Shown here: positions 1 through 43,420 of the stretch, in pieces | Layout of the letters: each line of letters starts with the position of its first letter | Position numbering within the stretch: the stretch's first letter is position 1 | DNA from: an uncultured Acidobacteriota bacterium | Lineage (GTDB): Bacteria; Acidobacteriota; UBA6911 | DNA length: 64,000 bases | NCBI GenBank assembly: GCA_963827655.1 | Contig: CAWHCF010000043.1 | Span: 1 to 64,000, forward strand | Direction of reading: 5' to 3' | The notes under the pieces: model-generated | What the model was told of the DNA's origin: nothing | What the model saw: only the letters and a program-made list of their open reading frames with translations | The model's database searches: none | Program-made: the position numbers and the translations under genes

Positions 1-2928
1 CCGACAGTGTCAACGCGCCGCTGTTACGCCCCGAGGCTATCAACTTCCCGTCAGCACTTAAAGCGACGCTCAACACCTCGTCTCGCTTACGGTCGGTTGG
101 CAGTCGGGCGTGATTTGCGAGTCGCCGCATCCCAGATTTTCAGCGTTCCGTCCCCGCTGCCGGAGACTATGGTCTTGCCGTCGGGCCGGAAAGCCAGACC
201 CCGAAGGGCTTTCGGGTGCGCGTCCACACGGTGACCAAAGGCCGTCGCGTCGACATCCCACAGAATGAGCCAAGTCGTAGCTCGCCGAAACAAACGATCT
301 TCCGTCGCGACTGAACATGACGCTCCGCACCTCGTTCTTATGCGCTCGCAGTACCTGTCTGGCCCGAATTTCCCCGTCATGATCAGGGGTTCCTCCGGAT
401 CCCAGACGACGATCGTACCGTCCTTGCTCGCGGAGACTCAGCTTCTGCCGTCATTGCTGAACGCCAGGTCGTAGACCCAATCCTGGTGCTCGCGCTCCTC
501 CGCCGCCGCGCGAAACTTGCCGTCCCCTCCCGGCCCCAGAAGGCGACGGTCCCATCGGCGTGCCCTGAAACCAAGTGCTCGCCTTTTGGGCTGAACGCTA
601 CAGCGAAAGGAGTATCTCACGATTTATCTTCAAGTCGTCGACTTTTTGCCGGTCGCTTGGGTTCCACACGGAAGAGCGCGCCGTCAGTATGCGCGGTTGC
701 GAGCCACTTGCCGTCGGGGCTGAATGCAACCCCGTTGACCCCGCCTTTGCCCGTGTCGAGCGACCTACGGCCGGCTTCTTCGTCGCGGGATTCCAGAAGA
801 CGAAGTTCCATCGTCGCTCGCCGACACCAAGGTTGTGCCGTCAGGGCTGAACACGATCCGGTTCACCCACTGCTCATGATGTTTCTCGGGGCCCGATAGT
901 AGTTTGCCCGATGCGGCGTCCCAGAACATGACGGCTCCGCTGTCGTCTCCCGAAACGATCGTAGCGCCATCGGGACTGAACGTCACCGTCCAGGCGCGGG
1001 CGTTGTGGCGGCCTTCCAGCTTGCGCAGCTGCCTGCCCGTCTCCACGTCCCATTGGATCAGCATCCCATTGTCGCCCGCCGAGACGATGGTCTTTCCGTC
1101 GGGGCTAAACGCCACGCTATTCGGCGCCGTCGGCGAAGCGAGAATCTTGCGGACCTGAGCGAGACGGCTAATGGGCACGAGCAGGCCACGGCGCGCCTCG
1201 ACGCTGGGCTGGAGTCGATAGCCGGCGATCGCAAGAAGGGCTGCGGTATCGAGCGGAACGTTCATAGTCGGGTCAGCGAAAAGGATGCTCTGCGCGGCCA
1301 CCTTACCTCCGAGAGCGAGGTGAGACTGTTTGGCCGCCTCGGCGGCTGAGGCCTTGGCTTTGGTCTCGGCATCCTCGGCGGTCTCGCGGAGCTTCGTCTC
1401 TTCTTCCGCTTTCGTCTTCAGCGACCTCCCTAAGGCCTATGGCGTCCCCCTCCGCCATGAGAGCTCCGGTTTAGAGCTTTTTGGTTTCCGTTTCCGCTGT
1501 GAGGGCGTCGTTGCGAGCCGCCCGTGCGTTCAACCACATATAGATCGCGATGGCGGTGAAGACAATGCAGACCATCGCTACACCGATGACGAGTCGGTCC
1601 GCGCGCGCTGCCGGCGCGCCTCCCATTCGACACGCTCGCGCTCTTGTGTGACGGGCCTCTTCCTCGCGCTCGTGTTCGCGCTCCGCCGCCCGCCGGCGGT
1701 TGCGGTGCTCGCGCACGGCGCGGGTCAGCAAGTCGTGGGTCACTCAATCCGCTCCGCCCCGTAGCGTTCTTCCACGCGAAGCAGCCGGCGCTGGATGAGG
1801 AGATTGAGCTGATCCTGTGTGAGCCGACCGGGGACGGCGTCCTCTTTCGCGTAGCTGTTGCGGAACCCCTTTCGGTGATGAGATCGGTTTCGATGAAGCG
1901 GCGCCCCGCGTCGGGTAGGCTCTCGACGCACGAAGCATAGTAGTCCGAGATGATGCTCGGCCCGCGCCGTCCAAGAGCGCAGCGTCAAAGTGCGGCTTGG
2001 CCTGGCGCTTGCGCTGCTCGTCGAGGCCCCGGCAGAAAAGGCTTAGCAGGGCGGGCTCGATCTCGCCGCTCGGCGCAATGTCGGCTGCGCCGGCTCCGAA
2101 CTCGTGGCCTGCGCCGCCGCGACGAACGCGACGATGCGCCGTGCCGTCGCCTCGTCCATGAGGTGTGGGGCCGTGTCGTAAACGGCTGACAGCGCCTGCT
2201 CGGGCTGCATCGGTAGCAACCGCACCCGCACGCGGCCGAGCGACGGGATCTCCCGCCGCCAGGCCTCGAGGTCCGGCAGGAAGTCCTCGCGCAGGCTCAC
2301 GATGATCTTGTAAGGCATCGCGCGCAGGTCCAGCCGCTCGACTTCGGCAGCCTTGGCCTCAAGGAGGGCAGCGACCGCGGCGGGAATGCGGTTCTCGATG
2401 AGGTCGCCGAAGTCGATCCGGAACCGCTCGACGGCCTCCGGTACGTGCTCGCCGAGCGAACTGCTCCTCGAACTGGTCGACCACCAGGATCGGGGTCAGC
2501 TCGTAGTTCTCCTTGCTCCACAGCTCGAGAGTGGAACGATGGAGGTAGTCCCAGAGCGTCTCGCCGTCCGTGAACGCGGGCGCATCCACGCGTTCGCTCT
2601 CGCAGGTCGCCCGCAACACATCGCGCAACTGCTCGGCGAGCGGGGGCGCGTTGTGGCGGATGTCGAGGCGCACGTAGACGGGGAGGAAGTGCTTCTCGCG
2701 CAGGCGCGGGAACAGACCGGCCTTCAGGAGCGAAGTCTTGCCGAGCCCCGACTTGCCGAAGAGCACGGTGAGGGGCGCGCCGGCCACTCGCCGGACCAGC
2801 TCCTCGGCCTCGGCGTCGCGGCGGAGAAAATAGTCGCGCGCGTTTTCTTCGAAGGCCTGGAGCCCCGGCCATGGGTTGTCCGGGTCGAGCTGGCGTTCGA
2901 CCGGCAGGGCCGTGAGAGTCGCGTTCAC
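1..2928 (-). CDS. nSTAND1-like NTPase - winged helix - TM helix - WD40 repeat protein; multiple frameshifts, 3' end beyond window
   Basis: Pieces in successive frames: NPWPGLQAF, Walker A GKSGLGKTS, Walker B ILVVDQFEE (2359-2928), IIVSLREDFL (2043-2318), LIQRRLLR...IE(L)THDLL (1471-1988), TM LVIGVAMVCIVFTAIAIYMWL, then WD40 units such as VAFSPDGKTIVSAGDNGMLIQWD and LAFRPDGKTIVSGSGDGTLKIWD down to base 1. Confidence 0.85.
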
Positions 2929-4309
2929 CGGGCCTCCCGTCGGCGCGCCGCGCGGACCAAACGGTCCGCGTCGAGGGGGCGAGCCGACCGTCCGGGGCGC
3001 CGACGAAATTGAAGTCCCGGAACATGCGAAAGGCCACGTCGTAGCGCGCGGGGTTGCCGTCGAAATCGCCGTCGATCACGACCGGCACGATGAAGTCTCC
3101 CCGCGCGAAGCCCTTGTTGCGCTCGATGGCCTCGCGCCATTCCTTGAAGACCTCACCGACCTCTCGGCCCTCGGTATTCCGCGAGATCACCGGCAGGAAG
3201 AGCCGGACCTGGTCGCGGATGGTAGAGAGGATCTCGTCTTGCCATCGGACCCCGGGATCGAGGCGCCGTCTGTCGAGCCAGACGTTCCCATGCGCCGCTT
3301 TGATCGAGTCGGCAAGGCGATCGACGGCGTCGGCATCCTCGCGCGCGTAGCTGATGAAGATGGTTTCCTCGGTCGGGCCGGTGGGCATCGACTCGGCGGC
3401 CTGGGGTGCGGCTCCCGCCTTCGGCTGCGGGGCGCGCTTGGCCCACCGCGCGTGCAGCTCCGCGACGAACTCGGCCGGATCAGCCTCGAGGACCTGGACC
3501 AACGACTCGCCGCAGAAGGTGGAGAAGAACTCGACAAGGCCCGGGCTGCGGCCCACGTCCTGGCTCACGATGAAAAACTGCTTGGTCGTGCGCGACAGGC
3601 GGTTGTCGCTTGCCAGCCGCGTGAGTATGCGCCCGACCCAGTCCGACAACGGGACACCGATGAAGAGCAGCGCGTCGCCGCGGATCCGCTGGTTTAGCCA
3701 CTCGGGCAGTCGCGCCGACTCCGTGAGCAGGGCGTGCAGCCACTCTAACACGTCCTCCTCGTGCACGGCGTACTGGGGCGTGGACGAGGCTTGGCCGAAC
3801 AGCTGGAACACGATGACCTCGTCAGGTGCGGGCCGGCTGGCGTTGCGTTGCTGGTCGCCGGTCGACTGGTTGGGGGAGAACCAGAGCTCGCGAGTGCGTG
3901 CGGCGCCGGCGAACCGGACGGCGTTGACGGCGGCGGCGAGCACGTGGTCGAAGGTCGTGCTCACGAACACCGACAGGTCGCTGATCTGCGCGAGCTGCCG
4001 GAGCGACTCCGGCGGCTGCGGGTTCAGGTCCGACAGGAGGTCGGCGATGCGCCCGTAGAGCCGGCGGTCGGCGTTGTCCCTGCCGTGCTTAGCGACGTAC
4101 GCCCGTGCGGCGTCGTCGAGACTGGCCCGTGCCGTCCATTCGACTTTCAGGTCGTAGCGCTCGGCGAGCCGCTCACCCAGCAGCCGGCAAAGGGGCACGC
4201 AGCGATCGCCGTCCTTGACGGTCACAAGCTCCGAGCCGACCACCGGAAGTAGGGTGCCCGACTTCAAGTGGCTGAACAGATCGTCCCAGAAATCCTCGCT
4301 CGCTTTCAT
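2925..4309 (-). CDS. SIR2-like domain + C-terminal TIR domain protein; one frameshift near 2980
   Basis: N-terminal PVVGSEL, VSTTFDHVL, FQLFG and LLFIGVPLSDW match the SIR2_2-type layout. C-terminal IFISYAREDA...VWLDRRRL...FLPVISRN...FKEW is TIR. Likely true stop TGA at 2925-2927 (alternative frame ...RRREAR*) overlaps the GTG of the STAND gene (GTGA). Confidence 0.8.
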
Positions 4310-4942
4310 GTCTGATTACCTCCAGACTCGCCGCGGTCAAGAACCCGAGTCTGTCTTAGCCGACAAAGAATGAAGAAAAGGGAAAAGCCTTCCCTTTAAT
4401 CACCAAAAGCTTCTGAATGAGAAGGCCATCAACCTAGATTGTCTCTGGCGGCAATGACTATGAAAACAGCCGCCGGCGGGTTAGACCATCTATAAGGAGA
4501 AACAAGCGTCATTTTCAGCTCAAATCCGGGGTAACTCACGTTCTGAGAAGGAGTGTAATGTAAACCGACCCAGTCTGCCGCAACTGCCCAGAGCCCCGGA
4601 CCGATCACGACCGGGATTTTACATCAAAACGATGTTGCATAATAATCTGGAGTTGACAAACACGTCTCCTCCAGCAGCAGACATTTCTCCGACTAGTCTC
4701 TCCTGCTCACGAAAAGTTGAGTTCGCCTGTCTCGCGATCTGGTAATGCGGAGGCAATCGGGGGCGGTCTGGAACCGAGGCCGAGACAGTCAAGTATCTTT
4801 CGAGTCGCCTCCGGGGGATGAATGGCGGCAATAATCCTCATGCGGCCGCCACATCGGGTCAGCAATGTGAGCGCAACCTATAACTCGCATAGACGCCGGT
4901 CCGGCGCTCCAGCCGCGGCTTAGCGCCTTCGTTTTCCTCAGC

Positions 4943-5922
4943 TCACACGCGCGACCAGATGCGGGTCTCGAGCTCCAGCGTGTCGATCAGGCGCTCGGCC
5001 AGCCTCACGACCTCGGCCAGCTCGCCGCACGCGATCTCCGGCGTGATCTTGCGCGCCGAAGACCACTCATCTCGAACCGGTTCTTGTTCTGCGGGATCGT
5101 CACGAACACGGAGTTGTCGTGGAAGGACAGCCGCAGGTGCGAGCGCAGCACGCGCTGCGCCTCGATGATCAGCTCCATCATCTTCGGCGTCAGGATGTAG
5201 CGCGCCTCCTGCTGGTCCGTGCCGTAGACGCTGTACAGCTTCTCGAAGTCGACGCTCTCCATCCGGCAGATGTCCTTCCTGCGCCGGCTCTCCGACTCGC
5301 CGAACAGCCCGCCGAGGATCTTGCTCTCGCTGTCGGGCACCACGACGGTGTGGCCCAGGAAGTTCTTGTTGAAGTCGAGCCGGACGATGCTGCCCTTGAA
5401 GATCGTGACGGTGCGGCGGTTCTTGCCCGAGCCCTCGGTGCGCGTGGCCTTGGCCTCGAGAATCGAATACGTGACGGCGTTCTTCCTGCCGCAGACCTCG
5501 TCCTCGGCGTGCCACTTCTCGGCGCGCTTCTCGAACAGGTCCATGTCGAGGAAGTCCTGCTTCGTGAAGCGGGACTCGGCGCTGTACGTCATGCCCTGGC
5601 CGAGCGCGCCGACCACGCGCGTCACGACGATGCTGCTTGTAGGTCTTGTTGAGCGCGCGCCACTGGTGCGTGCCGAAGACAGGACGATGATGCCACGGCG
5701 CCGCCGACGGAGAGCCGCGGGTCCTGTAGCCGCGGTTCCACATGATGCTGTAGGCGATGAGCGCCGAGCGCCGCGCACACGGCGCCGACCGTGAGCGATG
5801 CGACGCCGGACCTTGGCGACTTCGGCGTTGATGTAGTCGCAGGCCGCCTTGAGCTTCACCTGCGACTGCTTGTCGAGCTGGCTGAGACGCCCGACGCGTG
5901 GTGCTGAAGGGTCGGCGCTCAC
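4943..5922 (-). CDS. DUF3137-like membrane protein (frameshifted)
   Basis: TIFKGSIVRLDFNKNFLGHTVV and MESVDFEKLYSVYGTDQQEARYILTPKMME motifs; downstream of lemA with GTGA overlap. Confidence 0.75.
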
Positions 5923-6483
5923 GCCTTGAACAGGCTCTTCATGTCGACGTCGCGCGCGCTTGCTGCTCTTCGGCGACGAACGTCTGACGCAGCCCGAAGC
6001 CGGTGCCGCCGGCGATCAGCGAGCTGGGGAAGGTCTGCACGGCGTTGTTGTAGTCGGTGACCGCGGCGTTGTAGCTGCGGCGCGCGGCCGCGAGCTGCTC
6101 CTCGACCTCGTTGAGCGAGCGCTGGAGCTGCACGAAGTTCTCGCTCGCCCGGAGCTGCGGGTAGTTCTCCATGGTGACGTTGAGCTGTCCCATGGCGCGC
6201 GTGAGCTGGTTGTCGGCGCGCGATCTTCTCCGCCGGCGTCCGGCTCGACGAGCGCCTGCGACCGCAGCCGCACGATCTCCTCCAGCAGCGAGCGCTCGTG
6301 TCCCATGTACTGCTTCACGGTCTCGACGAGCTTGGGGATCAGGTCGTAGCGCTGCGTGAGCTGGACCTCGATGGTGCTGAACGCCTGGTCCACCATGTTG
6401 CGCCGGCGAACCAGATTGTTGTAGATCACGACGCCGGCGATGCCGAAGAGCAGCAGCACTCCTCCGAGCAGAAAGAGGCTCAT
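5919..6483 (-). CDS. lemA: LemA family protein (frameshifted)
   Basis: N-terminal TM, YNNLV...IEVQLTQRYDLIPKLV, ENYPQLRASENFVQLQ...ARRSYNAAVTDYN...FPSSLIA. Confidence 0.9.
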
Positions 6484-6755
6484 GGGTTCTCCTTAATGAG
6501 CTTATAGGAATTTGAATTTCTATCACGAATGAATCGGCGGAGCGAGCAAATTGTCCGGTAATGGTGGCTGGCGACGGAGCGGAAGACGCGGGACGGGAAC
6601 TTAAAGGCGCCGGCATGCAACAGCTGGGCAAAGCGTCGTCTCACAACCATGAGCGTCGTAAGGTGAGGTACAGTCTGGTGCCGGTCCTTGGTCTGTGGCG
6701 AACGGCACCCGAGCTCCTCTGAGCCTGCCATAGGTCATCGGCAGAATGCGGGCTC

Positions 6756-14865: not shown

Positions 14866-16277
14866 TAGTCCGCGCCCTCCTTTACCTCTGCCTCCGGCAA
14901 GAGCGTCCTCATCTCGAAAATTGCGATCATGGGAAGGAATCTCACAAACAAGAAGAGCAGCGCAAGGAACAACCCGATCGTTCCAACGAAAGTCATTAAA
15001 TCCCACGCCGTCGGCCAGTACATGCCCCACGATGACGGCAGGAAGTCACGATGCAAGCTGGTAATAACGATAATGAAGCGCTCCAGCCACATGCCGATGT
15101 TCACAATGATGGCAATCACAAATAACGCCGGCACGCTGGACCTTACCCGTCTGGACCAGAGCGCCTGAGGGATCAGGACGTTGCACAAGATCAGCATCCA
15201 GTACATAAGGGCGTAAGGCCCTCGCATCCGGTTGAGGATCATGAAAGTTTCGTACCCGCTCCCGCTGTACCACGCCATGAAGGTTTCGGTCATGTATCCA
15301 TAGGCGACGATCAGTCCGGTTGCGAGCATTACTTTAGCCATGTTCTGCAGATGCCGCAGGGTAATGAAATCCTCGAGGCCATAGATGGCTCGCAGTGGAA
15401 TTGCCAGGGTCATGACCATGGCGAAACCCGAGTAAATCGCGCCGGCGACAAAGTAAGGGGGGAAGATCGTCGTGTGCCAGCCCGGGATGATGGAGATTGC
15501 GAAATCGAAGCTCACGATCGTGTGTACGGAGACAACCAGCGGCGTGGCCAGCCCGGCCAGTAGAAGATATGCCGTCTCGTAGCGGTGCCAGTGAATCGCC
15601 GAGCCGCGCCAGCCCATGGCGAGGATGCCATAGGTGATGCGGGCCATGCGGGTTCTAGCCCGGTCTCGCAGCGTCGCCAGATCAGGAATCAATCCTACAA
15701 ACCAGAAGAGCAGAGAAACGGTCCCGTAGGTACTGACGGCAAAGACATCCCAAATGAGCGGGCTGCGGAACTGCGGCCAGACTTGCATTGTATTCGGATA
15801 AGGAAACAGCCAGTGCGCGAGCCAGGGCCGGCCCAGGTGCAGGATCGGGTAGAGCGCTGCGCAAGCAACGGCGAATAGTGTCATGGCTTCGGCGAAGCGG
15901 TTGATCGATGTCCGCCATTTTTGATTCAGCAGGAGCAAGATCGCGGAAATCAGCGTTCCGGCGTGGCCGATCCCAATCCACCAGACGAAGTTGATGATTG
16001 CGAACCCCCAACCGACCGGTACCCCCACGCCCCAAACTCCCACGCCGGCAACCAGCAGGTAGCCGATGGAGTACAGCAGCATCATGACCAGCGCGAACGT
16101 GAGCGCGAAACCCAGGAACCAACCGGTCCGCTTGCGCCGGGTCAGCACAATGGAACTGATCTTGTCGGTGATCGACGCGAAGGTGTGGCCCGGTTCCAGA
16201 ATCGCGTAAGAGTCGCCCGCCGGAGACTGCTCGATCGCTCTTCGGTTTACTTCACTCGATTCCCTACCGGTTTCCAT
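14865..16277 (-). CDS. actC: ACIII subunit C (NrfD/PsrC family)
   Basis: WGFAIINFVWWIGIGHAGTLISA, HLGRPW, SPLIWDVFAV, VHTIVSFDF, GWHTTIFPPYFV. Confidence 0.95.
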   Translation of the reverse strand: METGRESSEVNRRAIEQSPAGDSYAILEPGHTFASITDKISSIVLTRRKRTGWFLGFALTFALVMMLLYSIGYLLVAGVGVWGVGVPVGWGFAIINFVWWIGIGHAGTLISAILLLLNQKWRTSINRFAEAMTLFAVACAALYPILHLGRPWLAHWLFPYPNTMQVWPQFRSPLIWDVFAVSTYGTVSLLFWFVGLIPDLATLRDRARTRMARITYGILAMGWRGSAIHWHRYETAYLLLAGLATPLVVSVHTIVSFDFAISIIPGWHTTIFPPYFVAGAIYSGFAMVMTLAIPLRAIYGLEDFITLRHLQNMAKVMLATGLIVAYGYMTETFMAWYSGSGYETFMILNRMRGPYALMYWMLILCNVLIPQALWSRRVRSSVPALFVIAIIVNIGMWLERFIIVITSLHRDFLPSSWGMYWPTAWDLMTFVGTIGLFLALLFLFVRFLPMIAIFEMRTLLPEAEVKEGAD

Positions 16278-16296
16278 GCGCTTACAGTCTTCGCGT

Positions 16297-19200
16297 TCAG
16301 TCCAGCTCAGGGTTGATGTTCCGCACCGCAGCCAGATAGGTCGTGCGCGGCCGAGTATTCAGTTCGGTGAGCAAGCCGTAGTTACGAGGCTCGCGCTTCA
16401 ACTTTGCCACCTGGCTGCCGGGGTCATTGATATTGCCGAAAACGATGGCATCGACCGGACATACTGCCTGGCATGCGGTCAAGACTTCACCGTCGCGCAC
16501 CTGCCGGTCTTCTTTTTCGGCTTCGATCTTCGCTTTGTTGATCCGCTGGACACAATACGTGCACTTCTCCATGACACCCCGGCTCCTTACCGTCACATCG
16601 GGGTTGCTCAATAGCTTCAAGCTTGGTGTGTCCCAATCGGAATAAAGCAGAAAATTGAAGCGCCGGACTTTGTACGGACAGTTATTGGAGCAATAGCGTG
16701 TTCCGACACATCGATTGTAGACCATGTCGTTCAGCCCTTCAGCGCTGTGAACGGTCGCAGCTACGGGGCAGACGACCTCACACGGGGCATTTTCGCAGTG
16801 CATGCAGGGGACGGGTTGAAAATAAGTCTCCGGCGCGTCTACAGGGCCCTTGTGATAGCGGTCGATTCGCAGCCAGTGCATTTCGCGGCCGCGCAAAACT
16901 TCCTCCCTGCCGACGATCGGGATGTTATTTTCCGCCTGGCAGGCGATGACACAGGCATTGCAACCGATGCACGAATTCAGATCGATCGCCATCCCCCAGG
17001 CGTAGCCCTGGTACTCGTGCGGAGGGTAGAGCGAGAGCCCTTCCCCGTGCCCCACATGCTGGGCAAAGCCCGGATTGTTACGGTAGTGTTCGAACGAGGT
17101 AGAGCGGATCAGGTCGCGGCCTTCGAGATTGTGATGCAACTGTGTGTTGGCGAGACCATGCTTCTGACCCGTCTTGCGCAGCTCCAGGCTGCCGTCGAAC
17201 CATGGCGCTTCCGAGGTTCGAAGCGCGTAGGCATTGAAGCCGGCTCCGGTCCCGATCCTTCCCGCTCGCGTGCGTCCGTAGCCAAGATGAACCGTAACCG
17301 AATCGTCCGGCAACCCCGGTTGAATCCAGACCGGCGCTCGCACCATCCGTCCCCGATAGCGCAACTCGACGACGTCCGCAAATACCTCGCCGTGTTCTCC
17401 GCCCCGGTTGCTGAGCTCATAGCCGAGTCCGAGCCGGGCGGCTGTCGCCGGGCTCACGAGCGCCGCATTATCCCAGGTGAGCTTGCTAAGCGGCTTGGGA
17501 AGCTCCTGAAGCCAGCCATTGTTGGAAAACCGCCCATCGAATACGGTGGAGTCCGGGCGGAAGACGATGTCCAGCCCGGTTGCCGAGGCGGGGGTCCGGG
17601 GACCCGGTGTTAGAGACGTGTGCCAATCCGGTCTGAGCGCTACGGACTTCGAAGGGAGTCTGGTATTCGATATGAAGCCATCGTGTAGCGCTCTCCGCCA
17701 GGATTGCTCGAAATCGCCCGGCGCGCGGGAAGTCTGAACACTCCCCCGCGACGCTTCCTTGCCCACCGGTTTCTGGTCTCTGACACCGGGCGCGCGGGCC
17801 TTCACCCCCGCCTCCTCTTTTACCGCCGACGGCCAGTGAGTGCGCCAGTAATCGCGCACGATGTCGTAGCTGGATCGCTCCGGCCTGTCGGTTAACGTCG
17901 CGAGCAGCTCATGCGCGGTCTTGCCGCGATAGAGCGGAGCAATCAAGGGCTGCAGAATGGTCACGGTTCCGTCATAAGCGCGAGCGTCGCTCCAGGATTC
18001 GAGGTAGTGAGCCTCTGGAATATGCCACTGGCACAAGGCGGAGGTTTCGTCCTCGTACAGGCTCAAATGAATTCGAAGACCGACCTTTTGGAGACGTTCG
18101 GCGAATTTCAAATCTGCAGGCGCCGTGTAGACCGGGTTGGCCGATATTATCACCAGCATGGTGACTCGACCGGCATCCATGTCTCCGGCGAGCTCCCGCA
18201 GCGACTGGGTTTGATTATTCGACTCCGCTTCGATCGGGTCGGTATAAACGACAGTCTTGCCAATGTTGCCCAGCGCGTGGTTCATCGCGTGAGCCAGGGC
18301 ATGAACCTGGGTCGATTGATAGTCGCCGGGAATGATGACGCTTGAACCGCCGTGGAGCTGAAGCTCACCCGCGATGACTTTGATCCATTTGTTCCTTCGC
18401 TGTGCCTTGGGGGACTGAGGATCGTCCGGCCACTTCGGCGCGTCACCCGGTAGGATTCCCAATTCATGCGCCAGCGCGCGCGTAAAGATTTCGATCTCGG
18501 CAGGACGCAAGGGCAAGCGATGATCCGCCACGGCCCCGGTATTCGAGATGGTTGACTCCACGGCGTAGAGACGGTTCATCTGCTTCGACGGCAGTTTCCT
18601 CCGTGAAGCGAAATCGCGCGCGTAACGCAGGCTCGCAGGCCCGCAGCCGAGGAAATCCGAATCAAGAGCCAGAATAACCTCTGCTTGATCGGGCTGAAAG
18701 ACTGCGTTCAGGCCTTCGCCAAAGGCCAGACGGGTGCCGTCGCGGCCTCCATTGTGTCCGCTTGCATCGTACTGATGCCACCGGGCTTTGGGAAAAGTTG
18801 AGAGTATGTCGCGGATCTGGCCGGCCAGCGTCGGAGAAGTGATGGTTTCGGTAAGCAGGCGCAGGCCGGCTCCCTGAACGGCGACCTGCCCGTCAAGTCC
18901 GGCCCGGACCGCGCCCAGAAGCGCCGGCCAGGGCCGGATGTTCCCCAGGTGGGTAAGGGTCTGGGACCGATCAGGGTCGTAAAGGGAGAGCACGGAAGCT
19001 TGCGAGAATACGTCCGTGGCGCCCAGGCTGGCGGGATGATCGGGGTTCCCTTCAATCTTCGTTGGCCTGCCTTCGTGGCTTTCCACCAGCACTCCGGAAG
19101 CCACTCCGGCCAGCGTGGTCGCAGTCGCGAAAAACAGTGGCCGGCCGGGGACCACGTCCTCCGGCTGGCGAACATAGGGGACAATGGCCTCGTTGGGCTG

Positions 19201-27471: not shown

Positions 27472-30400
27472 TCACGGCGCAGATGGTTGGATGGTGAGGG
27501 TTATCCGGATGTGCTTTTCACGGGATACGATTACCGCTCCCGTATATGTCCCGGCCGCCAGGCCGCGCGGGTTTACGGTGATGGTCAGATCTGAGAACGA
27601 GTTCTCGTCAGCGATCGTGCTCTGACTTAGACTCGCGGTCAGCCAAGGTGCATTGTCGCTCACGCTCACGTTAAGAGAGCGCGTCCCAACGTTGCGCACG
27701 ACGATAATCCTCGTCGAAGATGCCGGACCTATCAGCTCGAAAGAGACGCTCCGCTCGAGAATCTTGAGAATGCCCGATGGGGGCGTGCCACCGTACCGTG
27801 TGTCGATGGTTCCGCCGTAGCTGTTGCTGTAGAGATAAGGCTGGTGACTGAATGCGCTGAAATCGATGCCGATCGTCCCGGAATAAAGATCAGTATCCTC
27901 GAAGGTGTTACTTCGGACTACCGTATCGCTCTGCAGGCCGAGGAGGACAACATACTGATGTGCGTTCATGACGTGGTTATGTTCGACTACCGCGTTTTGC
28001 TGCCAGATCCGGTCGACTCCATAGAGATTAATATCTCCCACGGAGAGGGCATGATTCCTCGCCGCGCCTATTATGTTGTCAGCGATTGTGTTGAGATTGA
28101 GCAGCAGGTCCGCCGTCCGGTCCGGGTTCTCGATCCGGCTCCAACTCGTCACCCCGTATTTGATGTCTGTTATGGTGTTGCCCGTTACCGTGACGTTCCA
28201 GTTCGGGCAACCGTTGAGCATGAAACTCCCGCCGGCGCCAGCGACGCATGAGAGATTGACCAAGGCAGAGATTTGGACACCGGTAGTGGTAGTGCTGATA
28301 GTGTTATTCGCGACTACCAGATCCATGACGGTACCGAAAGCTTCGACGCCGGCGTTATACAGATCATCGGGAGCACTGAAGACTTGAGAGAATCCAGTCA
28401 GCGTGTTCGAGTAGACTGCGCTCCTGAAAGAGGCGTTGCTGATTGTGATGACGCTGGTCGTGTCCGGAGTAATGTCCCAAGGTCGATCAAGCGTGAGTTG
28501 GCTGGATGTGTTCGCGGTGATCCTCCGGTACTGTCCCGCTCCGGGTCCTTTTTGAATAAGCGCGACGGCCGGGTTGACGATCGACGGATCCTGCCAGGAT
28601 GTGTTATCGTCCCAGACGAAGCGCGAAGCTGCAAAAGGTGTTCCTAAGAAGGTCAGAGTGTTAGATCCCACGTTCATCGGTGATCCGGTGAAGTAAGTTC
28701 CCGCCGACTCAAAAAGAATCTGCTCCCCGCAAGTTCCGACGCGGCATCCCGTGCTCTGCGTCTCGTTGCCCCCGAGATAGTGGTGAGAGGTCGTCGATTG
28801 AAACGCTCCCTGCGTGAGCCACAACCGACAGAGGATGCTTCCGCCGGCCCGGTTCAGGCTGCGCCCGAGGTTGTTGCTGATGTCCATCTCATGGCTGCGC
28901 AGTGCGGCAATCGCCACAGTTCCAGGGCTGGCGTCGGCCTCGGGCCAATTGCCGTCGATTGTGTTGTTCTGGATGAATGCCTGAAACACTATGTAGAGCT
29001 GTATCGCCTGGGAAGACCTGAACTCGGAATTCGTGATAATCACGTCGTTGACCGAGCGCGTGTCGATGCACCGATATGCCGAAGTGGCCGCGTTCGGTGT
29101 GAGGAAGGCGACCGAGTCCACGATTGCCCCGGCGCGCGTCGGCGTTTGGTTGAATCCGTCGAAGAATATTATTCCCTGGCTCAGTCCGCGGGTGATCGAG
29201 CTATTGAAGCGCATATTTCTAATCCGCGTCGGCAGATCATTCACCTTGAAGACGCCTTGGCAACACCAGGTGGTTGCGGTTATGTCAATTGTAGTGCTGG
29301 CGATCCCGGCGCCGTTGATGTCGATCGCCGCGTTGATGTGGAGTTGGTCTGTGCCGGTCAACGTGAATGTCCCCGCGGGAATCGTTACGATATCCCCGTC
29401 TGCGGAAGCGTTGAAGGCCGCCTGAAAGGCCGAAGTGTCGTCTAGTCCGTCGTTGGCGACTGCGCCGAAAGACGTAACACTTCGGCTCGTCCCGGCCCAG
29501 GTGTAAGGATTGCTCGCTTCCACGCGGAGTTTCAGCGGCCCGCTCCAGCCGTACTCGCCGCCATGGTTGTTATGAATCCAGACCTCGTAATCAGCATTTG
29601 TCCTGACTCTCGGGATCGTGAATGTGACCTTGTACGGGTTGACAGACGAGACGATGCAGACGGTAGATGCCGTCCCCGACCCCGAGCCCCAAGGTCGGAT
29701 AAAGACACTGGAGGTTACAGTAGAGTTGTTTTTGGAGAGGTTGCGACCGTAGACGCTGATTGAGGCCCCGACGACTCCATGGTTAGGCCCGACCCACCAC
29801 GCTTCGGTCGCATTGACGCGGATCGGCCTACCGGCACCATTTTGGTTCTCCGGCCAAATGAGGTACATGCCGTAAGGAACGAAATCAGGAACGTAAGCAG
29901 TCACCGAGCCGATATCTTCCCTGAGAATTTGCGTGCTCCACAGCGTCGCGTTTGAGTTCTCAGTTTGCGAATAGAGCAGAACCCTGATATCAGACCCGGC
30001 TGCCGGGCCCGCGCGCGCCGTGAAATTTGATCCGTGAAGCACGAAGCTTCGGTCCGGTGATGCCTGGCGCGTGAATTCCGATACGACTGGAGTTCTTCTC
30101 GCAACGCTTCCGGTGAGAGATGGGTTGAACGTGTCCCCTGGTGCGGCAGGATTGTCGGGAGGACGCGTGTAGTTGTAGGCTAACAGATCGAGATCAAAGT
30201 TGGTCTCTCGATAGATTCCGCCGTTGTCCTTGAGAACTGGAGGCGGCAGAACGGTCGCTCTGATGGGGGTCTGCAGTATTGGTTTCGGCGGCGCGATGAC
30301 GGCCCAGATCTCGTTCCTGAACCCACTCTCGGCTCGGGTCGATGGCGCATGGCCGACGGCGTAAGTAGTGACGGCGGAGACATGCGCTCCCGGTGTCAAC

Positions 30401-39769: not shown

Positions 39770-42700
39770 CTAGAAGTAGTACTTGAGCGCAAACTGAATT
39801 ATGCGCGCATTCCGGGCCGACAGGATCTGTCCGAATCCGCTGGCCTCGGCCCGGATGTCCGGCGGATCGAGATTCGCCCGGTTGAAGGCATTGAAGAACT
39901 CGGTTCGGAACTGAAAGTAGTTGTTCTCACTGACCGAAAAATTCTTGGCCAGCGTGAAATCGAAGCTGGTGAATCCGGGGCCGCGCATGATTCCGACGCC
40001 GGAGTTCCCGAAGGCCTGGGGCGAGGGACTGAAACCCGTGGTGAAGGCCGCCGTGTTGAACCACTTCTCCACTGTCTGCTGGGAAGAAGAGAATTCGGCT
40101 TCCTGTCCCGGCACCCGGTTCGGTCGAGCTCTTCGCTCCCCGCCCAGGCCCAGGACCGTTCCGCCTCCCAGGGTAGCGGTCAGCCCGAGACCGCTCTGAT
40201 AGGAATGGATGCCATTGATCTGCCAGCCGCCCAGGAGGAGATCGGTCGCTCGATTCCAGTTCTGGCCCACCCGGCGTCCGCGGCCGAATGGCAACTCGTA
40301 GATATAGCTCGCGACGAATCGGTGCTTGACGTCGAATTCGGCGAGACCGCGCTCTGCCTTCAGATTGTTTGGATTCTGGGGCTCACGGAAGGTTCCGGTG
40401 TCGAGCCCCGGCCCTCCGCCACTGGTCGAAATGTGATCGGGCGCCTCGGTCAATGCCTTGCCGAAGGTATAGCTGAAGAGAGTCGAGAGTCCGGCGGAGA
40501 AACGTTTTTCAAGACGCCCCTGCAGCGAGTTGTAACTCGAGAGCACGCGGTTTTCCATCCACTGGATATCGCCGAAGCTGGGATACGGCCTCCCGCCGAC
40601 GGCCTGGGAACCGTCAGGGTTGACGGTGAAGAAACGCTGGTTCAGATTGCGAAATCCGTTCAGTTTTGTGCCCTTGTTCCCGACATAAGCAATGTCGAAG
40701 AGCCAGTCCTGCACGAATTCGTACTGAATGCCGAAGTTGTACTGCTGGATGTACGGACTGCGCTGGTTGGGATCCTGCGAACGGCGCAGAATGGTCGGAG
40801 CCAGCGAATTCGGGTCGAGCAGGCCCGAGGGGTAGCCGTCCTGAAGCCGGAAGGGCGCTGCCGATGCCACGGCTGCCGCGCCGGTCACGGCCGTGTTCAG
40901 CAGGTTATCGACCAGAAACGGAGGATTGAACCCGAGCAGGCCTTCTCTTCCCTGCCGAACCGTGTGAGTGTAGAAAACGCCGTAAGCGCCCCGTATCACC
41001 CAGCGTGAAGCGGGCGTGTAAGCAAAGCCGAAGCGCGGCGCCCAGTTGTTGCGATCGGGATGAATCAAAGCCCGGTCGAAAATGCCGCCGTCCTTGGCAA
41101 ACAGCATGGTGCCGGTTGCCGGATCAAAATTGGCGAACTGATTGTCCCTCTCGCGCGGCGGCGTCGCATACTCGTAGCGAAGTCCCAGGTTCAACGTGAA
41201 CTTGGAAGTGAGCTTGAAGTCATCCTGAAGGAAGTAGAAATACATATCCTGGCCCTGATCCATGACCGTGAAGCTGGTCAGGGCTAATTCAGTAGGCACT
41301 CCGAGCAACAAGTCTCCGACCGATCGTCCGGTGAAGCGGTTGTCGAAGTTGATGCGTCCGATGGTTGCGTTCAAGTCGTTGATCCGGGTCTGGACGTGGA
41401 GGAACTCAGTCCCGAATCTGAAGAAATGCCGACCGCGGGTAAGGCTGAAGGTCGCGCGCGGATTCCAGGAGCGCGGTGTCTGAAACTGGGGCGTGGAGGT
41501 GTGGCGGCCAACCGCATCGAACCCCTGCAGGTTGATCTTGGGGATTCCGCCCGTGATCGCCGGATCGTTCGGAACATTCTTCAGGCCGATCTGCGCCGGG
41601 CCGTCCACGCCGTAGTTGGGCGGATTGGTGAAGAAATTTCCCCGAGACCACCCGAAACGGAAGTCTGCCAGGAAAGAAGGCGAGAGGGTCCAGGTCAGGC
41701 CCAGAGCCAGTCCTTGCGACCGATTCAAGTTGGCCCCAAACGCGTCGTTGAAGGAGCCTTCGGCCAGGCCCTCGAAAGGAGCGCGGACGAAACGTATCGG
41801 TGTCCACGAAACTGTAGCGGCCGAAAAGATTCAAAGTGGGACTGAACTGGTGATCGGCTCGGACGTCGAACTGATCGGTCCGTGTCCGGGTGATCGGAGT
41901 CGACGCATAGACATTTCTGCCGGCGACGTTAGGATCTGGAATCAAGGCGGCGATGTTGGCGCCGACGGGATCCCAGCGGCTCGCCGGTATGACCCACAGC
42001 CCTTGCGCGTTGCGGCCGAACTCAGGCCGGCCCGGCGCGAATGGATCGACCACGGCTACGCTGAAGAGGCCGGCCTTTTCCCGGCGGTCGGAAGAGTCCT
42101 GGCGCGCGGCACTCCTTCCCGCTCGCGCAGTCCCTCGTAATCCGCAAACCAGAAAGTCCTGTTTCTGACCAGAGGGCCGCCCACGGCAGCGCCGAACTGA
42201 TTTCTCTTCCGTACCGGTTTGGGCGCGCCCAGCGCATTCGAGAAGAAGTTGTTTGCGTCCAGAACGTCGTTGCGCAGAAACTCGTAAAGACTGCCGTGCA
42301 GATTGTTGGTTCCCGACTTGATGGTGGCGTTCACCACAGCGCCTGAACTGCGGCCGAATTCTGCCGAGTACGCGTTGGTCTGGATTTTGAATTCCTGGAG
42401 CGCCTCAACCGAGGGCTGGACCATCTGGACGTTTTCACCACGAAAGGAGTTGGAATAGGAAATATTGTCCACTCCATCGAGGAGGAAGACGTTGTTGAAC
42501 GTCCGGTTGCCATTCACATTAAGGACGCCTTTGAAGTTGACGGCGGCCAGCCGAGGCGTTCCGGGCAACACCCCGGGTGAAAGGAGCGCAAGCTGGTTGT
42601 AGTCGCGTCCGTTGAGAGGAAGGTCGACAATTTTCTTCTGATCGATCACGGAGCCCCGGGACGAAGTGTCGGCTTCGAGCAGCGGAGCGGACGCGCTCAC

Positions 42701-43084
42701 CTGGACCGTGTCGGCGATTTGTCCAACCTGGAGGCTGATATCGATGCGCGCAACCTGATTTACTTGAAGAACAATCCCTTCCTGAAGGAACTTCTTGAAG
42801 CCTGTTATTTCCGCGCTGACAGAGTATGTCCCCGGATTGAGAGCTGGAATGACGTAGTTCCCGGTTTCGTTACTGATAGTCGACTGGGAAGTATTTCGTG
42901 CCGTGTTGGTGACTGTAATGCTAACGCCGGGCAAAACAGCACCGCTGCTATCGCGGACTGTCCCGGTCAGAGTGGCGCTGGACGTCTGCGCCAGTGCCGC
43001 GGCGGCGTTCGACAAAAAGGCCAGGCAAACGAGAGCTCCAGCACAAGCCAGAGCGCGCGCTGCGGTGTTGCGTCGACTGAACAT
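39770..43084 (-). CDS. TonB-dependent receptor, Oar/carboxypeptidase-regulatory-domain type; two frameshifts (~42050, ~41780)
   Basis: GTVRDSSGAVLPG, LPLNGRD, LDGVDN, EFKIQTNAYSAEFG, KSGTN, NLGLRYEY, NNWAPRFG, C-terminal RIIQFALKYYF. Confidence 0.9.
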
Positions 43085-43326
43085 CCTGGTTACCTCCCTG
43101 GGTTTCTCATGAAAGAGATTAAAGCTTTCCGGTGCCGGAATGATTACAGCTCGATGAAGAATTTGTTAATCCCGCGTTCGGACGGAAGATTGCTCGCGCC
43201 CGCTACCTTGGGAACCAGCACTGATGGCCCCACGGTAGACAGAGAGCGCTCACAAATTTCCTGCCAGGGATTGTATGGAAGCGCCGTACCAAAGATTAGT
43301 AAGGGACGGCAAAGCGGTCAAGGGGA

Positions 43327-43420
43327 ATTGACGATTGACGATTGGCGACTATCGTGGATTAGTGCTCTGGCGTAGCCGCTCTCGCCAATCGTCAATCGTA
43401 AATCGTCAATCGTCAATCGC
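43327..43420. repeat. Heptamer-armed hairpin element, copy 1
   Basis: (ATTGACG)n - GTGGATTAGTGCTCTGGCGT - (CAATCGT)n. Confidence 0.85.

What the first reader, a model, noticed from the sequence alone, without database searches (positions are those of the whole stretch)
1..4309. Candidate two-gene immune/conflict system: SIR2-like+TIR effector coupled to an effector-less, membrane-anchored STAND-WD40 receptor
Seen: a SIR2-like/TIR gene whose likely stop overlaps (GTGA) the start of a gene that begins directly with an nSTAND1-type NTPase, followed by a winged-helix region, one TM helix, a coiled linker and many WD40 repeats. Established: Avs and bacterial NACHT proteins are typically soluble STAND receptors with a fused N-terminal effector, and TIR and SIR2 domains act on NAD+ in Thoeris and DSR. 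Inference: this is a split NLR-like module in which the WD40 propeller senses on the far side of the inner membrane, the STAND oligomerises in the cytoplasm, and the separate SIR2-TIR protein is recruited as effector. I do not recognise it as a named system, but I cannot confirm novelty without a search.
Basis: partly seen in the sequence, partly recalled or inferred. Interest (0 to 1): 0.85.

Follow-up and report, generated by a model that had tools for sequence, protein, structure and literature searches.

The report
Two-gene TIR and membrane-STAND immune module
This is a strictly conserved bacterial gene pair, a TIR enzyme fused to a dead sirtuin-like domain plus a membrane-anchored NLR-type ATPase with a WD40 sensor, that looks like an undescribed immune module, seen here in a copy garbled by assembly errors.

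Summary
On the minus strand a SIR2-like/TIR gene (4309-2925) ends in a TGA that overlaps the GTG (2928) of an nSTAND1 NTPase gene. That gene continues through one hydrophobic helix and WD40 repeats and runs off the contig start. The many frameshifts are most likely assembly errors: short-read contigs of close relatives carry the missing bases at those sites.

The pair is conserved. A STAND gene follows directly on the same strand in 79 of 79 related loci from at least seven phyla. It also follows in 4 of 4 copies in this genome and in 4 other genomes of the phylum. The NTGA overlap occurs in 61 of 78 loci. A helix with positive-inside bias occurs in 63 of 70. The C-terminal sensor is WD40 in about 51 of 67 and otherwise YEATS-like.

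The TIR keeps its Glu, so TIR is the likely enzyme.

No PADLOC, NCBIfam or literature match names this module. I read it as a new variant of NLR-like STAND/TIR conflict systems. An immune role and sensing outside the membrane are inferred, not shown.

The parts
2925..4309 (-). Gene 1: standalone SIR2-like + TIR protein, about 460 aa. It has one frame change near 2975 and its stop is TGA 2927-2925.
   Evidence: The intact paralogue C35 and 78 of 79 orthologues have their own stop.
3425..4309 (-). SIR2-like Rossmann domain (residues 1 to about 295) with the catalytic Asn and His replaced (T119, F171).
   Evidence: Pfam SIR2_2 scores 25 bits. The AlphaFold model has pLDDT 90. Top Foldseek hits are ThsA, Avs5, KomC and DSR2. 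hhalign against canonical SIR2_2 gives probability 98.2.
3035..3376 (-). TIR domain (residues about 312-425) with an invariant Glu390-Trp391.
   Evidence: TIR_2 at 6.5e-17. The best solved relatives are SPARTA TIR-APAZ, and E390 aligns with their residue 77. E390 is invariant in 45 of 45 sequences.
2928..3010 (-). Conserved basic C-terminal tail helix of gene 1 (AP.G.PD..L...L..EIR..RR). It is read in a second frame in the window.
2925..2937 (-). GGAGG followed by GTGA: the start of gene 2 overlaps the stop of gene 1.
   Evidence: An NTGA overlap occurs in 61 of 78 related loci.
1..2928 (-). Gene 2: nSTAND1 NTPase, TM helix, linker and WD40. It has many frame changes and its 3' end lies beyond the contig start.
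1700..2928 (-). nSTAND1 NTPase module, from Walker A GKSGLGKTS and Walker B VVDQFEE to the ELTHD motif.
   Evidence: PF20703 at 2.2e-23 on the first fragment and 2.3e-32 on an intact orthologue covering profile positions 1-340. The Walker residues are invariant in 46 of 46 sequences.
1531..1593 (-). Single hydrophobic helix LVIGVAMVCIVFTAIAIYMWL, preceded by an Arg-rich stretch.
   Evidence: An equivalent helix occurs in 63 of 70 orthologues. Lys+Arg is higher on the N side in 59 of 63.
1..1110 (-). WD40 repeats, in several frames.
   Evidence: About 51 of 67 orthologues carry a beta-propeller here.

Best explanation
This is a conserved two-gene, NLR-like conflict module, probably abortive-infection immunity.

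Gene 2 is the sensor and switch. Its nSTAND1 ATPase sits on the cytoplasmic face. One helix holds it in the inner membrane. A variable C-terminal domain (WD40 propellers here, a YEATS-like domain in others) most likely lies outside the membrane.

Gene 1 is the effector. It is made in step with gene 2 through the overlapping stop and start. Ligand binding by the sensor is proposed to let the ATPase oligomerise. That would bring copies of the SIR2-like/TIR protein together so that their TIR domains cleave NAD+, either depleting it or making a signal.

The SIR2-like domain has lost the canonical catalytic Asn and His. It is proposed to act as a scaffold or adaptor, or as a nucleotide-binding regulator.

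Shown: domain identities, strict pairing, coupling, helix conservation, sensor variation, and the residue losses and retentions.
Inferred: binding between the two proteins, NADase output, topology, trigger and an immune role.

The window's copy is very probably intact in nature and broken only in the assembly.
For: Pairing:
- A STAND gene lies directly downstream on the same strand in 79 of 79 genome-contig loci. These come from Acidobacteriota, Gemmatimonadota, Burkholderiales, Actinomycetota, Chlorobiales, Methylomirabilota, Cyclobacteriaceae and Syntrophobacteraceae.
- The same holds in 4 of 4 copies in this genome and in G070, G094, G178 and G230.
- 78 of 79 loci have a separate stop. The 79th has the stop in a shifted frame.
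- NTGA overlap occurs in 61 of 78; the other 17 start 2-20 nt after the stop.
- Of the best 150 among 559 clusters at E<=1e-30, most are 440-500 aa. Only 4 exceed 700 aa.
- Two of those four, the two I scanned, are fusions with nSTAND1, in either order: P0016 and P0043.

Enzymology:
- E390 is invariant and aligns with residue 77 of SPARTA TIR-APAZ. That this residue is the catalytic Glu is recalled.
- Walker A and B residues are invariant in 46 of 46 sequences.
- The SIR2 fold is confirmed, but the canonical Asn aligns to T119 and the His to F171.

Membrane:
- A hydrophobic span of median 22 residues occurs in 63 of 70.
- Mean Lys+Arg is 5.8 on the N side and 2.8 on the C side. N exceeds C in 59 of 63 and is never lower.

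Sensors:
- WD40-type families match in up to 51 of 67.
- The short class has a YEATS fold (Foldseek E 4e-06). Pfam pYEATS matches below its cut-off in 8 of 10 tested.

Binding:
- Complex prediction scored 0.60 (runs 0.57, 0.61, 0.60). The best of 3 controls scored 0.01. The verdict was 'weak support'.
- That mark was reached by 58 of 80 solved complexes and 2 of 110 mismatched pairs. At 0.60 or under, only 7 of those 80 reached it, as did both mismatches.
- The runs agree in at least 93% of contacts, and the partner's pLDDT is at least 76. My own alignments were used.

Frameshifts:
- Contigs from 4 independent soil or rhizosphere runs, 90-99% alike, insert bases at 1595, 1742, 1871, 1958, 2087 and 2457. 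One run also shows changes at 237, 240, 438, 1647 and 1648.
- These sites match the frame changes I read.
- The C35 paralogue has a single frame change in the NTPase, at a different place.
Against: - No experiment on any member was found.
- Context is not clearly a defence island. Among 115 flanking ORFs of 24 loci, PADLOC hits were scattered: mad3 4, mad8 3, caspase 3, phospholipase 2, HamB 1, BrxH 1. The commonest Pfam families included ABC transporters and peptidase M24. No background control was run.
- No match in 50,697 phage records or in IMG/VR by pattern. Only 1 match in 72,556 plasmids, a 2.5-Mb non-mobilisable replicon.
- The loss of the SIR2 residues leaves half of the proposed effector without a known activity.
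- The complex prediction is weak, and no interface was given.
- Topology rests on hydropathy and charge bias only.
- The contigs come from relatives, not from this strain. Genuine decay of this copy is therefore not excluded.
Confidence: 0.6

Rival explanations
1. Reversed roles, as in Thoeris. The SIR2-like/TIR protein senses infection and makes an NAD-derived signal. The membrane-anchored STAND protein is the effector, for example by clustering its helices to damage the membrane.
For: TIR proteins are the sensors and signal makers in Thoeris, and many Thoeris effectors carry TM helices (passages of 10.64898/2025.12.03.692087). A non-catalytic SIR2-like pocket could bind a nucleotide. Gene 2 has no recognisable toxic domain.
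Against: The STAND protein keeps the full sensor-type architecture, with a variable C-terminal repeat or ligand-binding domain. It has no known signal-binding domain such as SLOG, Macro or SAVED. The variable part lies in gene 2 and the constant part in gene 1, which is the usual mark of sensor versus effector.
Confidence: 0.12
2. The module is not antiviral. It is an envelope-stress, kin-recognition or developmental cell-death switch of soil bacteria, many of them with a multicellular habit.
For: nSTAND1 and related systems were described as conflict or apoptosis-like systems enriched in multicellular prokaryotes (passages of PMC8195603 and PMC7159879). Neighbourhoods are mostly housekeeping genes. 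The module is absent from phages and mobilisable plasmids. A sensor outside the membrane would see the envelope rather than the phage interior.
Against: Distribution is patchy: 29 of 401 genomes of the phylum have any match, and only 4 others have a near full-length one. This genome carries several divergent copies. The flanks differ between genomes. These are traits typical of accessory defence genes.
Confidence: 0.15
3. The hydrophobic helix does not span the membrane. The protein would be a soluble, Apaf-1-like cytoplasmic STAND whose WD40 or YEATS domain senses an intracellular ligand.
For: Solved and tested bacterial STAND sensors are cytoplasmic, and WD40 Apaf-1-like sensors are reported (passages of PMC12803255). 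No signal peptide is present. No topology experiment exists.
Against: The span has a median of 22 apolar residues and a mean Kyte-Doolittle score of 1.8-3.3, and it occurs in 63 of 70 proteins. Charge bias favours the N side in 59 of 63. A C-terminal Cys pair occurs in 32 of 49 long WD40 forms that otherwise have a median of 1 Cys. The YEATS-like domain has two nearly invariant Cys. Both would fit disulfides outside the cytoplasm.
Confidence: 0.2
4. The copy in this window is a genuine pseudogene, decaying after duplication, rather than an assembly artefact.
For: There are at least a dozen frame changes in 2.9 kb of gene 2 and only one in 1.4 kb of gene 1. A second copy, 92% identical, exists on C35. 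The contigs are from relatives, not from this strain.
Against: The neighbouring LemA and DUF3137 genes are also frame-broken, with an indel at 6249 seen in relatives' contigs. Other nSTAND1 paralogues in this draft are split too. Nearly all listed differences are bases missing from the window at single sites, each supported by up to 4 runs. The region lies at a contig end and within a near-repeat. The pieces still read as conserved protein, 68-77% identical to an orthologue over the three best-aligned NTPase pieces.
Confidence: 0.15

Closest known systems
Avs/AVAST antiviral STAND proteins, notably Avs5 (SIR2-STAND) and TIR-bearing Avs
   Same: A STAND ATPase with a variable C-terminal sensor is coupled to a SIR2- or TIR-type NAD+ effector. 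The Avs5 SIR2 domain is among the top structural matches of gene 1 (9jap and 9nc9).
   Different: Avs are single soluble polypeptides with the effector fused at the N-terminus. Here the effector is a separate protein in 78 of 79 loci. The ATPase belongs to the nSTAND1 clade and carries a TM helix. The SIR2-like domain lacks the catalytic His that is mutated in the related DSR2 and KomC structures. No Avs model in PADLOC matched.
Type I Thoeris (ThsB TIR + ThsA SIR2-SLOG)
   Same: It combines TIR and SIR2 folds in one system. ThsA is the best structural match of the SIR2-like domain (7uxt, 6lhx and 8bto).
   Different: Here the two folds sit in one protein, there is no SLOG domain, and the SIR2 Asn and His are lost. 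The partner is a STAND ATPase. ThsB models match only weakly and partially, at 1e-04.
nSTAND1 conflict systems with effector-associated domains (Kaur et al. 2021, PMC8195603)
   Same: They use the same NTPase clade. Effectors, including TIR and SIR2, can sit on separate proteins (passages).
   Different: In those systems the coupling runs through a shared EAD or Death-like adaptor on both proteins. Here Pfam finds no such domain. The STAND protein starts only about 5 to 27 residues before the NTPase motif, which leaves no room for one.
SPARTA TIR-APAZ / short pAgo
   Same: It has the closest solved TIR domain by sequence (E about 1e-10), with the Glu aligned. It is also the best PADLOC TIR match, Aga_TIR at 9e-13.
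   Different: This module has no APAZ domain and no Argonaute. The likeness is confined to the TIR domain.
TIR-nSTAND1 paralogues of this same genome (contigs C36 and C42)
   Same: They share the NTPase clade and a TIR partner, and the C42 copy has WD40 repeats.
   Different: By my reading of the translations, without a Pfam scan, TIR is fused to or lies alone before the NTPase and there is no SIR2-like domain.

Membership tests
nSTAND1 (Pfam PF20703) | Match to the family profile above the curated cut-off of 27.1 bits | tested here: met
   84 bits on window 2359-2928. 113.5 bits on the intact orthologue L068.
nSTAND1 (Pfam PF20703) | Intact Walker A and Walker B motifs | tested here: met
   The GxSGLGKxS Lys and the DQFEE motif are invariant in 46 of 46 sequences. 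Both are present in the window.
TIR NADase (TIR_2, PF13676) | Profile match plus the conserved catalytic Glu | tested here: met
   62.6 bits. E390 is invariant in 45 of 45 sequences and aligns with residue 77 of TIR-APAZ. The catalytic role of that residue is recalled, not tested.
Catalytic defence SIR2 (SIR2_2: ThsA, DSR, Avs5, KomC) | SIR2 Rossmann fold | tested here: met
   The top Foldseek hits are all defence SIR2 proteins (E 2.5e-12 to 1e-07). hhalign gives probability 98.2. Pfam scores 25.0 bits against a cut-off of 24.5.
Catalytic defence SIR2 (SIR2_2: ThsA, DSR, Avs5, KomC) | Catalytic Asn (TTNYD motif) and His (HG motif) | tested here: not met
   Asn aligns to T119 and His to F171 (Phe, Leu or Met across the family). 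GAGxS aligns to G-[SP]-E-L. That these are the catalytic residues is recalled. The PDB titles 'DSR2 (H171A)' and 'KomBC(H146N)' agree with this.
Thoeris | Separate TIR (ThsB) and a signal-binding effector (ThsA with SLOG or Macro) | tested here: not met
   No ThsA model matched. ThsB matched only weakly and partially. Pfam finds no SLOG or Macro domain.
Avs/AVAST | Single polypeptide with an N-terminal effector, a STAND ATPase and a sensor | tested here: not met
   78 of 79 loci are split. No PADLOC model matched the STAND protein.
EAD-coupled STAND conflict systems (Kaur et al. 2021) | A homotypic adaptor domain shared by the effector protein and the STAND protein | tested here: not met
   Pfam finds no adaptor family. 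The STAND N-terminus is too short to hold one. An undescribed short peptide-type coupling, through the conserved tail of gene 1, is not excluded.
Anti-phage defence system (general) | Protection against phage; enrichment in defence islands | not testable with these tools
   Only a rough look at neighbours was possible, without a background control.

The most novel reading that the evidence does not exclude
This would be a true transmembrane NLR in bacteria. A STAND receptor would have its WD40 or YEATS-like sensor outside the cytoplasmic membrane. It would detect an event in the periplasm or cell wall, such as phage entry machinery, envelope damage or a foreign surface molecule. It would carry that signal through a single helix to drive ATPase oligomerisation inside the cell. 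The ATPase would then assemble a separate TIR NADase through a pseudo-sirtuin adaptor domain.
Probability: 0.33. Interest if true: 0.85.

Novelty: new variant of a known kind. Interest (0 to 1): 0.62.

Why it matters
All bacterial STAND/NLR-type immune receptors characterised so far, as far as I recall and as far as the passages I read show, sense ligands in the cytoplasm and carry their effector in the same chain.

This module is widespread. It has 559 sequence clusters at E<=1e-30. It occurs in soil Acidobacteriota, Burkholderiales and many Mycobacterium, Nocardia and Rhodococcus genomes. It departs from the known pattern in three linked ways:
- The effector is a separate, co-translated protein with no known adaptor domain.
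- A sirtuin fold has been kept but stripped of its catalytic residues.
- The receptor is anchored in the membrane with its variable sensor probably outside.

If confirmed, it would give a tractable model for signalling across a membrane by an NLR-like ATPase. It would also show a pseudoenzyme serving as scaffold for TIR activation.

Tried and rejected
- A fused single ORF is rejected. The long open frame 4309-2297 is out-of-frame Pro/Arg-rich sequence after about residue 445. Orthologues have their own stop. L053, the one locus scored 'same frame', has the tail and stop in a shifted frame.
- An active SIR2 NADase is rejected.
- A sequence profile of the SIR2-like domain found no solved structure, with 0 matches at E<=10. 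The comparison therefore rests on the fold and on hhalign against 17 canonical SIR2_2 sequences taken from the loci.
- A defence-island test gave mixed hits without a control. I draw no conclusion on enrichment from it.
- The one plasmid hit, a Paraburkholderia 2.5-Mb replicon, carried no annotation.
- Phage records and IMG/VR gave nothing.
- A shared 2-nt frameshift in both copies was suspected from similar out-of-frame tails. It is rejected, because the C35 frame change lies 12-17 codons upstream of the window's.
- Runs X1-X4 hold at most 0.20 of the sampled words. I name no habitat or strain from them. Parts of the stretch without cover are not interpreted.
- Literature searches that found no description of this pair: 'nSTAND1'; 'SIR2-TIR'+'STAND'; six terms; 'EACC1'+'STAND'; four spellings of TIR-SIR2; 'pYEATS'; STAND, TM, periplasmic and WD40.
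- Of the papers I saw only passages found by term: PMC8195603, 10.1101/2023.09.22.558884, PMC12803255, 10.64898/2025.12.03.692087, PMC7159879 and 10.64898/2026.10.19.760177. Their supplementary tables were not seen. Those of PMC12803255 and PMC8195603 may list this architecture.
- DefenseFinder and newer PADLOC releases were not available.

Full report
WHAT IS IN THE WINDOW

The window is the first 64 kb of contig C43 of an 8.18-Mb draft genome in 53 contigs. All features of the finding lie on the minus strand.

Gene 1 starts at ATG 4309, behind a GGAGG. It matches TIR_2 at 6.5e-17 and SIR2_2 at 25.0 bits, just over the cut-off of 24.5. The ORF list shows this frame open down to 2297. After about residue 445, however, it reads as Pro/Arg-rich out-of-frame sequence. 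The protein-like reading shifts frame near 2975, at a run of five C. It then ends '...LDADRLVRAARRREAR' at TGA 2927-2925.

That TGA overlaps GTG 2928-2926, and a GGAGG lies 4 nt upstream. From this GTG the sequence reads 'VNATLTALPVERQLDPDNPWPGL...GKSGLGKTS...VVDQFEE', which matches nSTAND1 PF20703 at 2.2e-23.

Further down, in changing frames, come four more elements:
- the ELTHD motif;
- an Arg-rich stretch;
- a 21-residue apolar helix encoded at 1593-1531;
- a charged linker and WD40 repeats that reach base 1.

Two additions are needed: gene 2 is cut off by the contig end, and it is broken many times.

ARE THE FRAMESHIFTS REAL?

I laid the Logan contigs of four soil and rhizosphere runs on 1-6700 at 90% likeness or more. 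Contigs that are 90-99% alike insert one or two bases at 1595, 1742, 1871, 1958, 2087 and 2457. Each of these is seen in 2 to 4 runs. One run also shows changes at 237, 240, 438, 1647 and 1648. These are the places where I had to change frame. A further 53 indels were not listed by the tool.

Several other observations point the same way:
- The neighbouring LemA and DUF3137 genes are frame-broken too, and two runs show an indel at 6249.
- Other nSTAND1 paralogues of this draft are split.
- Window 1-4355 is 92% identical to the last 4.36 kb of contig C35.
- The C35 copy has only one frame change in its NTPase, at a different place.
- Its gene 1 is intact and 95% identical at the protein level.

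I conclude that the breaks are most likely consensus errors at a contig end that lies within a near-repeat. The contigs come from relatives, so genuine decay of this one copy keeps about 0.15.

IS THE PAIR CONSERVED?

Yes, strictly.
- This genome has four copies of gene 1: C43, C35, and C50 and C23 at 33-35% identity. Each is followed by an nSTAND1 match.
- In a sample of 401 genomes of the phylum, 29 had any match. Near full-length ones were in G070, G094 and G178, plus a copy in two pieces in G230. All four are followed by the STAND gene.
- An exhaustive search of 1.84 billion representatives gave 6422 proteins at E<=1e-3 and 559 at E<=1e-30. Of the best 150, most are 440-500 aa and four exceed 700 aa.
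- A scan of GTDB species genomes returned 79 loci. They come from Acidobacteriota, Gemmatimonadota, Burkholderiales, Actinomycetota (Mycobacterium, Mycolicibacterium, Nocardia, Rhodococcus), Chlorobiales, Methylomirabilota, Cyclobacteriaceae and Syntrophobacteraceae.
- I built an HMM from six intact STAND modules. With it, 79 of 79 loci have the STAND gene directly downstream on the same strand.
- 78 loci have a separate stop. The remaining one, L053, has the tail and stop in a shifted frame.
- The start overlaps the stop as ATGA or GTGA in 61 of 78. In the other 17 it lies 2-20 nt behind the stop.
- The NTPase motif begins 14-80 nt after the stop, so the STAND protein has no N-terminal domain.
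- Two rare singletons are fusions, SIR2-TIR-nSTAND1 (P0016) and nSTAND1-SIR2-TIR (P0043). This is Rosetta-stone support for a functional link.

WHAT ARE THE PARTS?

Gene 1. The AlphaFold model, built from 45 sequences, has pLDDT 90. Its N-terminal 300 residues match defence sirtuins: ThsA, Avs5, KomC and DSR2. A sequence profile of this domain finds no solved structure. Profile-profile alignment against 17 canonical SIR2_2 sequences gives probability 98.2 over 236 columns. In that alignment:
- the canonical TTNYD Asn falls on T119;
- the canonical HG His falls on F171, which is Phe, Leu or Met across the family;
- the GAGxS loop falls on G-[SP]-E-L.

That Asn and His are the catalytic pair is recalled. 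The PDB titles 'DSR2 (H171A)' and 'KomBC(H146N)' fit this. Other pocket residues stay conserved: D121, E185, D186, E189, D223, R227 and R231. A binding role is therefore possible.

The TIR domain is closest to SPARTA TIR-APAZ, at about 1e-10. Its invariant E390 aligns with residue 77 there. A basic tail helix after the TIR domain is conserved.

Gene 2. The Walker A and B residues are invariant in 46 of 46 sequences. A hydrophobic 19-mer with a Kyte-Doolittle mean of at least 1.8 lies 20-80 residues after the NTPase module in 63 of the 70 proteins long enough to show it. The apolar span has a median of 22 residues. The 15 residues before it hold on average 5.8 Lys+Arg, against 2.8 after it. The N side is richer in 59 of 63, equal in 4 and never poorer. 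This predicts an N-in, C-out orientation.

Behind the helix, up to 51 of 67 proteins match WD40-type propeller families. The short forms have a 65-residue helix and a beta-sandwich. The model of this part has pLDDT 88, and its best structural matches are GAS41, AF9 and ENL YEATS domains (E 4e-06). Pfam pYEATS matches below its cut-off in 8 of 10 tested. pYEATS is listed as a ligand-binding sensor in conflict systems in one passage of 10.64898/2026.10.19.760177.

The YEATS-like domain has two nearly invariant Cys. Of 49 long WD40 forms, 32 end in a C-x(15-40)-C pair, while the rest of each has a median of one Cys. This would fit disulfides outside the cytoplasm. It is only a hint.

DO THE TWO PROTEINS BIND?

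I ran one complex prediction with a natural intact pair from a Nocardia isolate. It used STAND residues 1-418 and the whole of gene 1, each with a 46-row alignment.
- The score was 0.60 (runs 0.57, 0.61, 0.60), against 0.01 for the best of three controls. The tool's verdict was 'weak support'.
- The mark was reached by 58 of 80 solved complexes and 2 of 110 mismatched pairs. At 0.60 or under, only 7 of those 80 reached it, as did both mismatches.
- The runs agree in at least 93% of contacts, and the partner's pLDDT is at least 76. No interface was given.

Given strict synteny, coupled translation and the rare fusions, the prior for binding was already high. The result adds a little.

IS IT KNOWN?

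- PADLOC-DB 2.0 gives only partial TIR-domain hits (Aga_TIR, SAVED_TIR, ThsB). It gives nothing for the SIR2-like part or for the STAND protein.
- NCBIfam has no model over its cut-off.
- Source names are 'TIR domain' or 'hypothetical protein'. One fusion is called 'conflict system STAND superfamily ATPase/TIR domain-containing protein/SIR2-like protein'.
- nSTAND1 was defined by Kaur et al. 2021, who describe effectors coupled to it through shared adaptor domains (passages).
- Dore et al. note STAND targets predicted to be periplasmic (passages).
- None of the passages I read, and none of seven full-text searches, describes this pair.

CONTEXT

The flanks differ from genome to genome. Among 115 flanking ORFs of 24 loci, PADLOC hits were scattered (mad3 4, mad8 3, caspase 3, phospholipase 2, HamB 1, BrxH 1). 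Pfam's commonest families included ABC transporters and peptidase M24. No control was run.

There is no match in phage records or IMG/VR. The single plasmid match is on a 2.5-Mb replicon.

VERDICT

The finding is a real, conserved two-gene module of the STAND/TIR conflict kind. It has three unusual linked traits:
- a split effector without a known adaptor;
- a sirtuin fold that has lost its catalytic residues;
- a membrane anchor, with the sensor probably outside.

I rate it a new variant of a known kind, with interest 0.62. The immune role, the topology and the activation mechanism are inferred.

Noticed in passing
window 1-4355 and 4914-6559; G000:C35:93650-98009 and 87785-89413: The first 4355 bases are 92.3% identical (61 gaps) to the very end of contig C35. 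The LemA-DUF3137 block is 91.3% identical to a block 4 kb further into C35. Two readings are possible: the contig ends are strain variants of one locus, or LemA-DUF3137 copies flank a duplicated permease-STAND-TIR segment.
   Followed up: partly
window 4943-6631 (-): The DUF3137 gene (5.3e-30) and the LemA gene (4.4e-15) are both split over two frames. Relatives' contigs show a 1-base difference at 6249. From about 6700 onward the ORFs are long and unbroken.
   Followed up: partly
window 1322-1512: Contigs of two runs skip 191 bases here, with one base in between. A third run replaces 101 bases with 100 others. The linker between the helix and the WD40 domain therefore varies among close relatives.
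   Followed up: no
G000:C36:~15600-17000 and ~28000-29400; C42:~41700-44700; C41:~129700-130800: This genome has four further nSTAND1 genes. By eye on the translations, two have a TIR-like N-terminus in the same gene region, one follows a separate TIR-like gene and carries WD40 repeats, and one begins with an OmpR-type winged helix. Several are also frame-split.
   Followed up: partly
L045 (G230:C6) 2296-3617 and 3618-4917: The gene-1 homologue is in two pieces. A long ORF on the opposite strand, 410-415 aa, lies right behind it. This looks like an insertion, but the ORF was not identified.
   Followed up: no
P0016 (1065 aa) and P0043 (1006 aa): These are rare single-member clusters in which SIR2-like, TIR and nSTAND1 sit in one chain, in both orders. 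They could be true fusions or gene calls across sequencing errors.
   Followed up: partly
L074 14116-15339: A second STAND module (7e-108) lies about 2 kb downstream of the first pair in one actinobacterial MAG locus.
   Followed up: no
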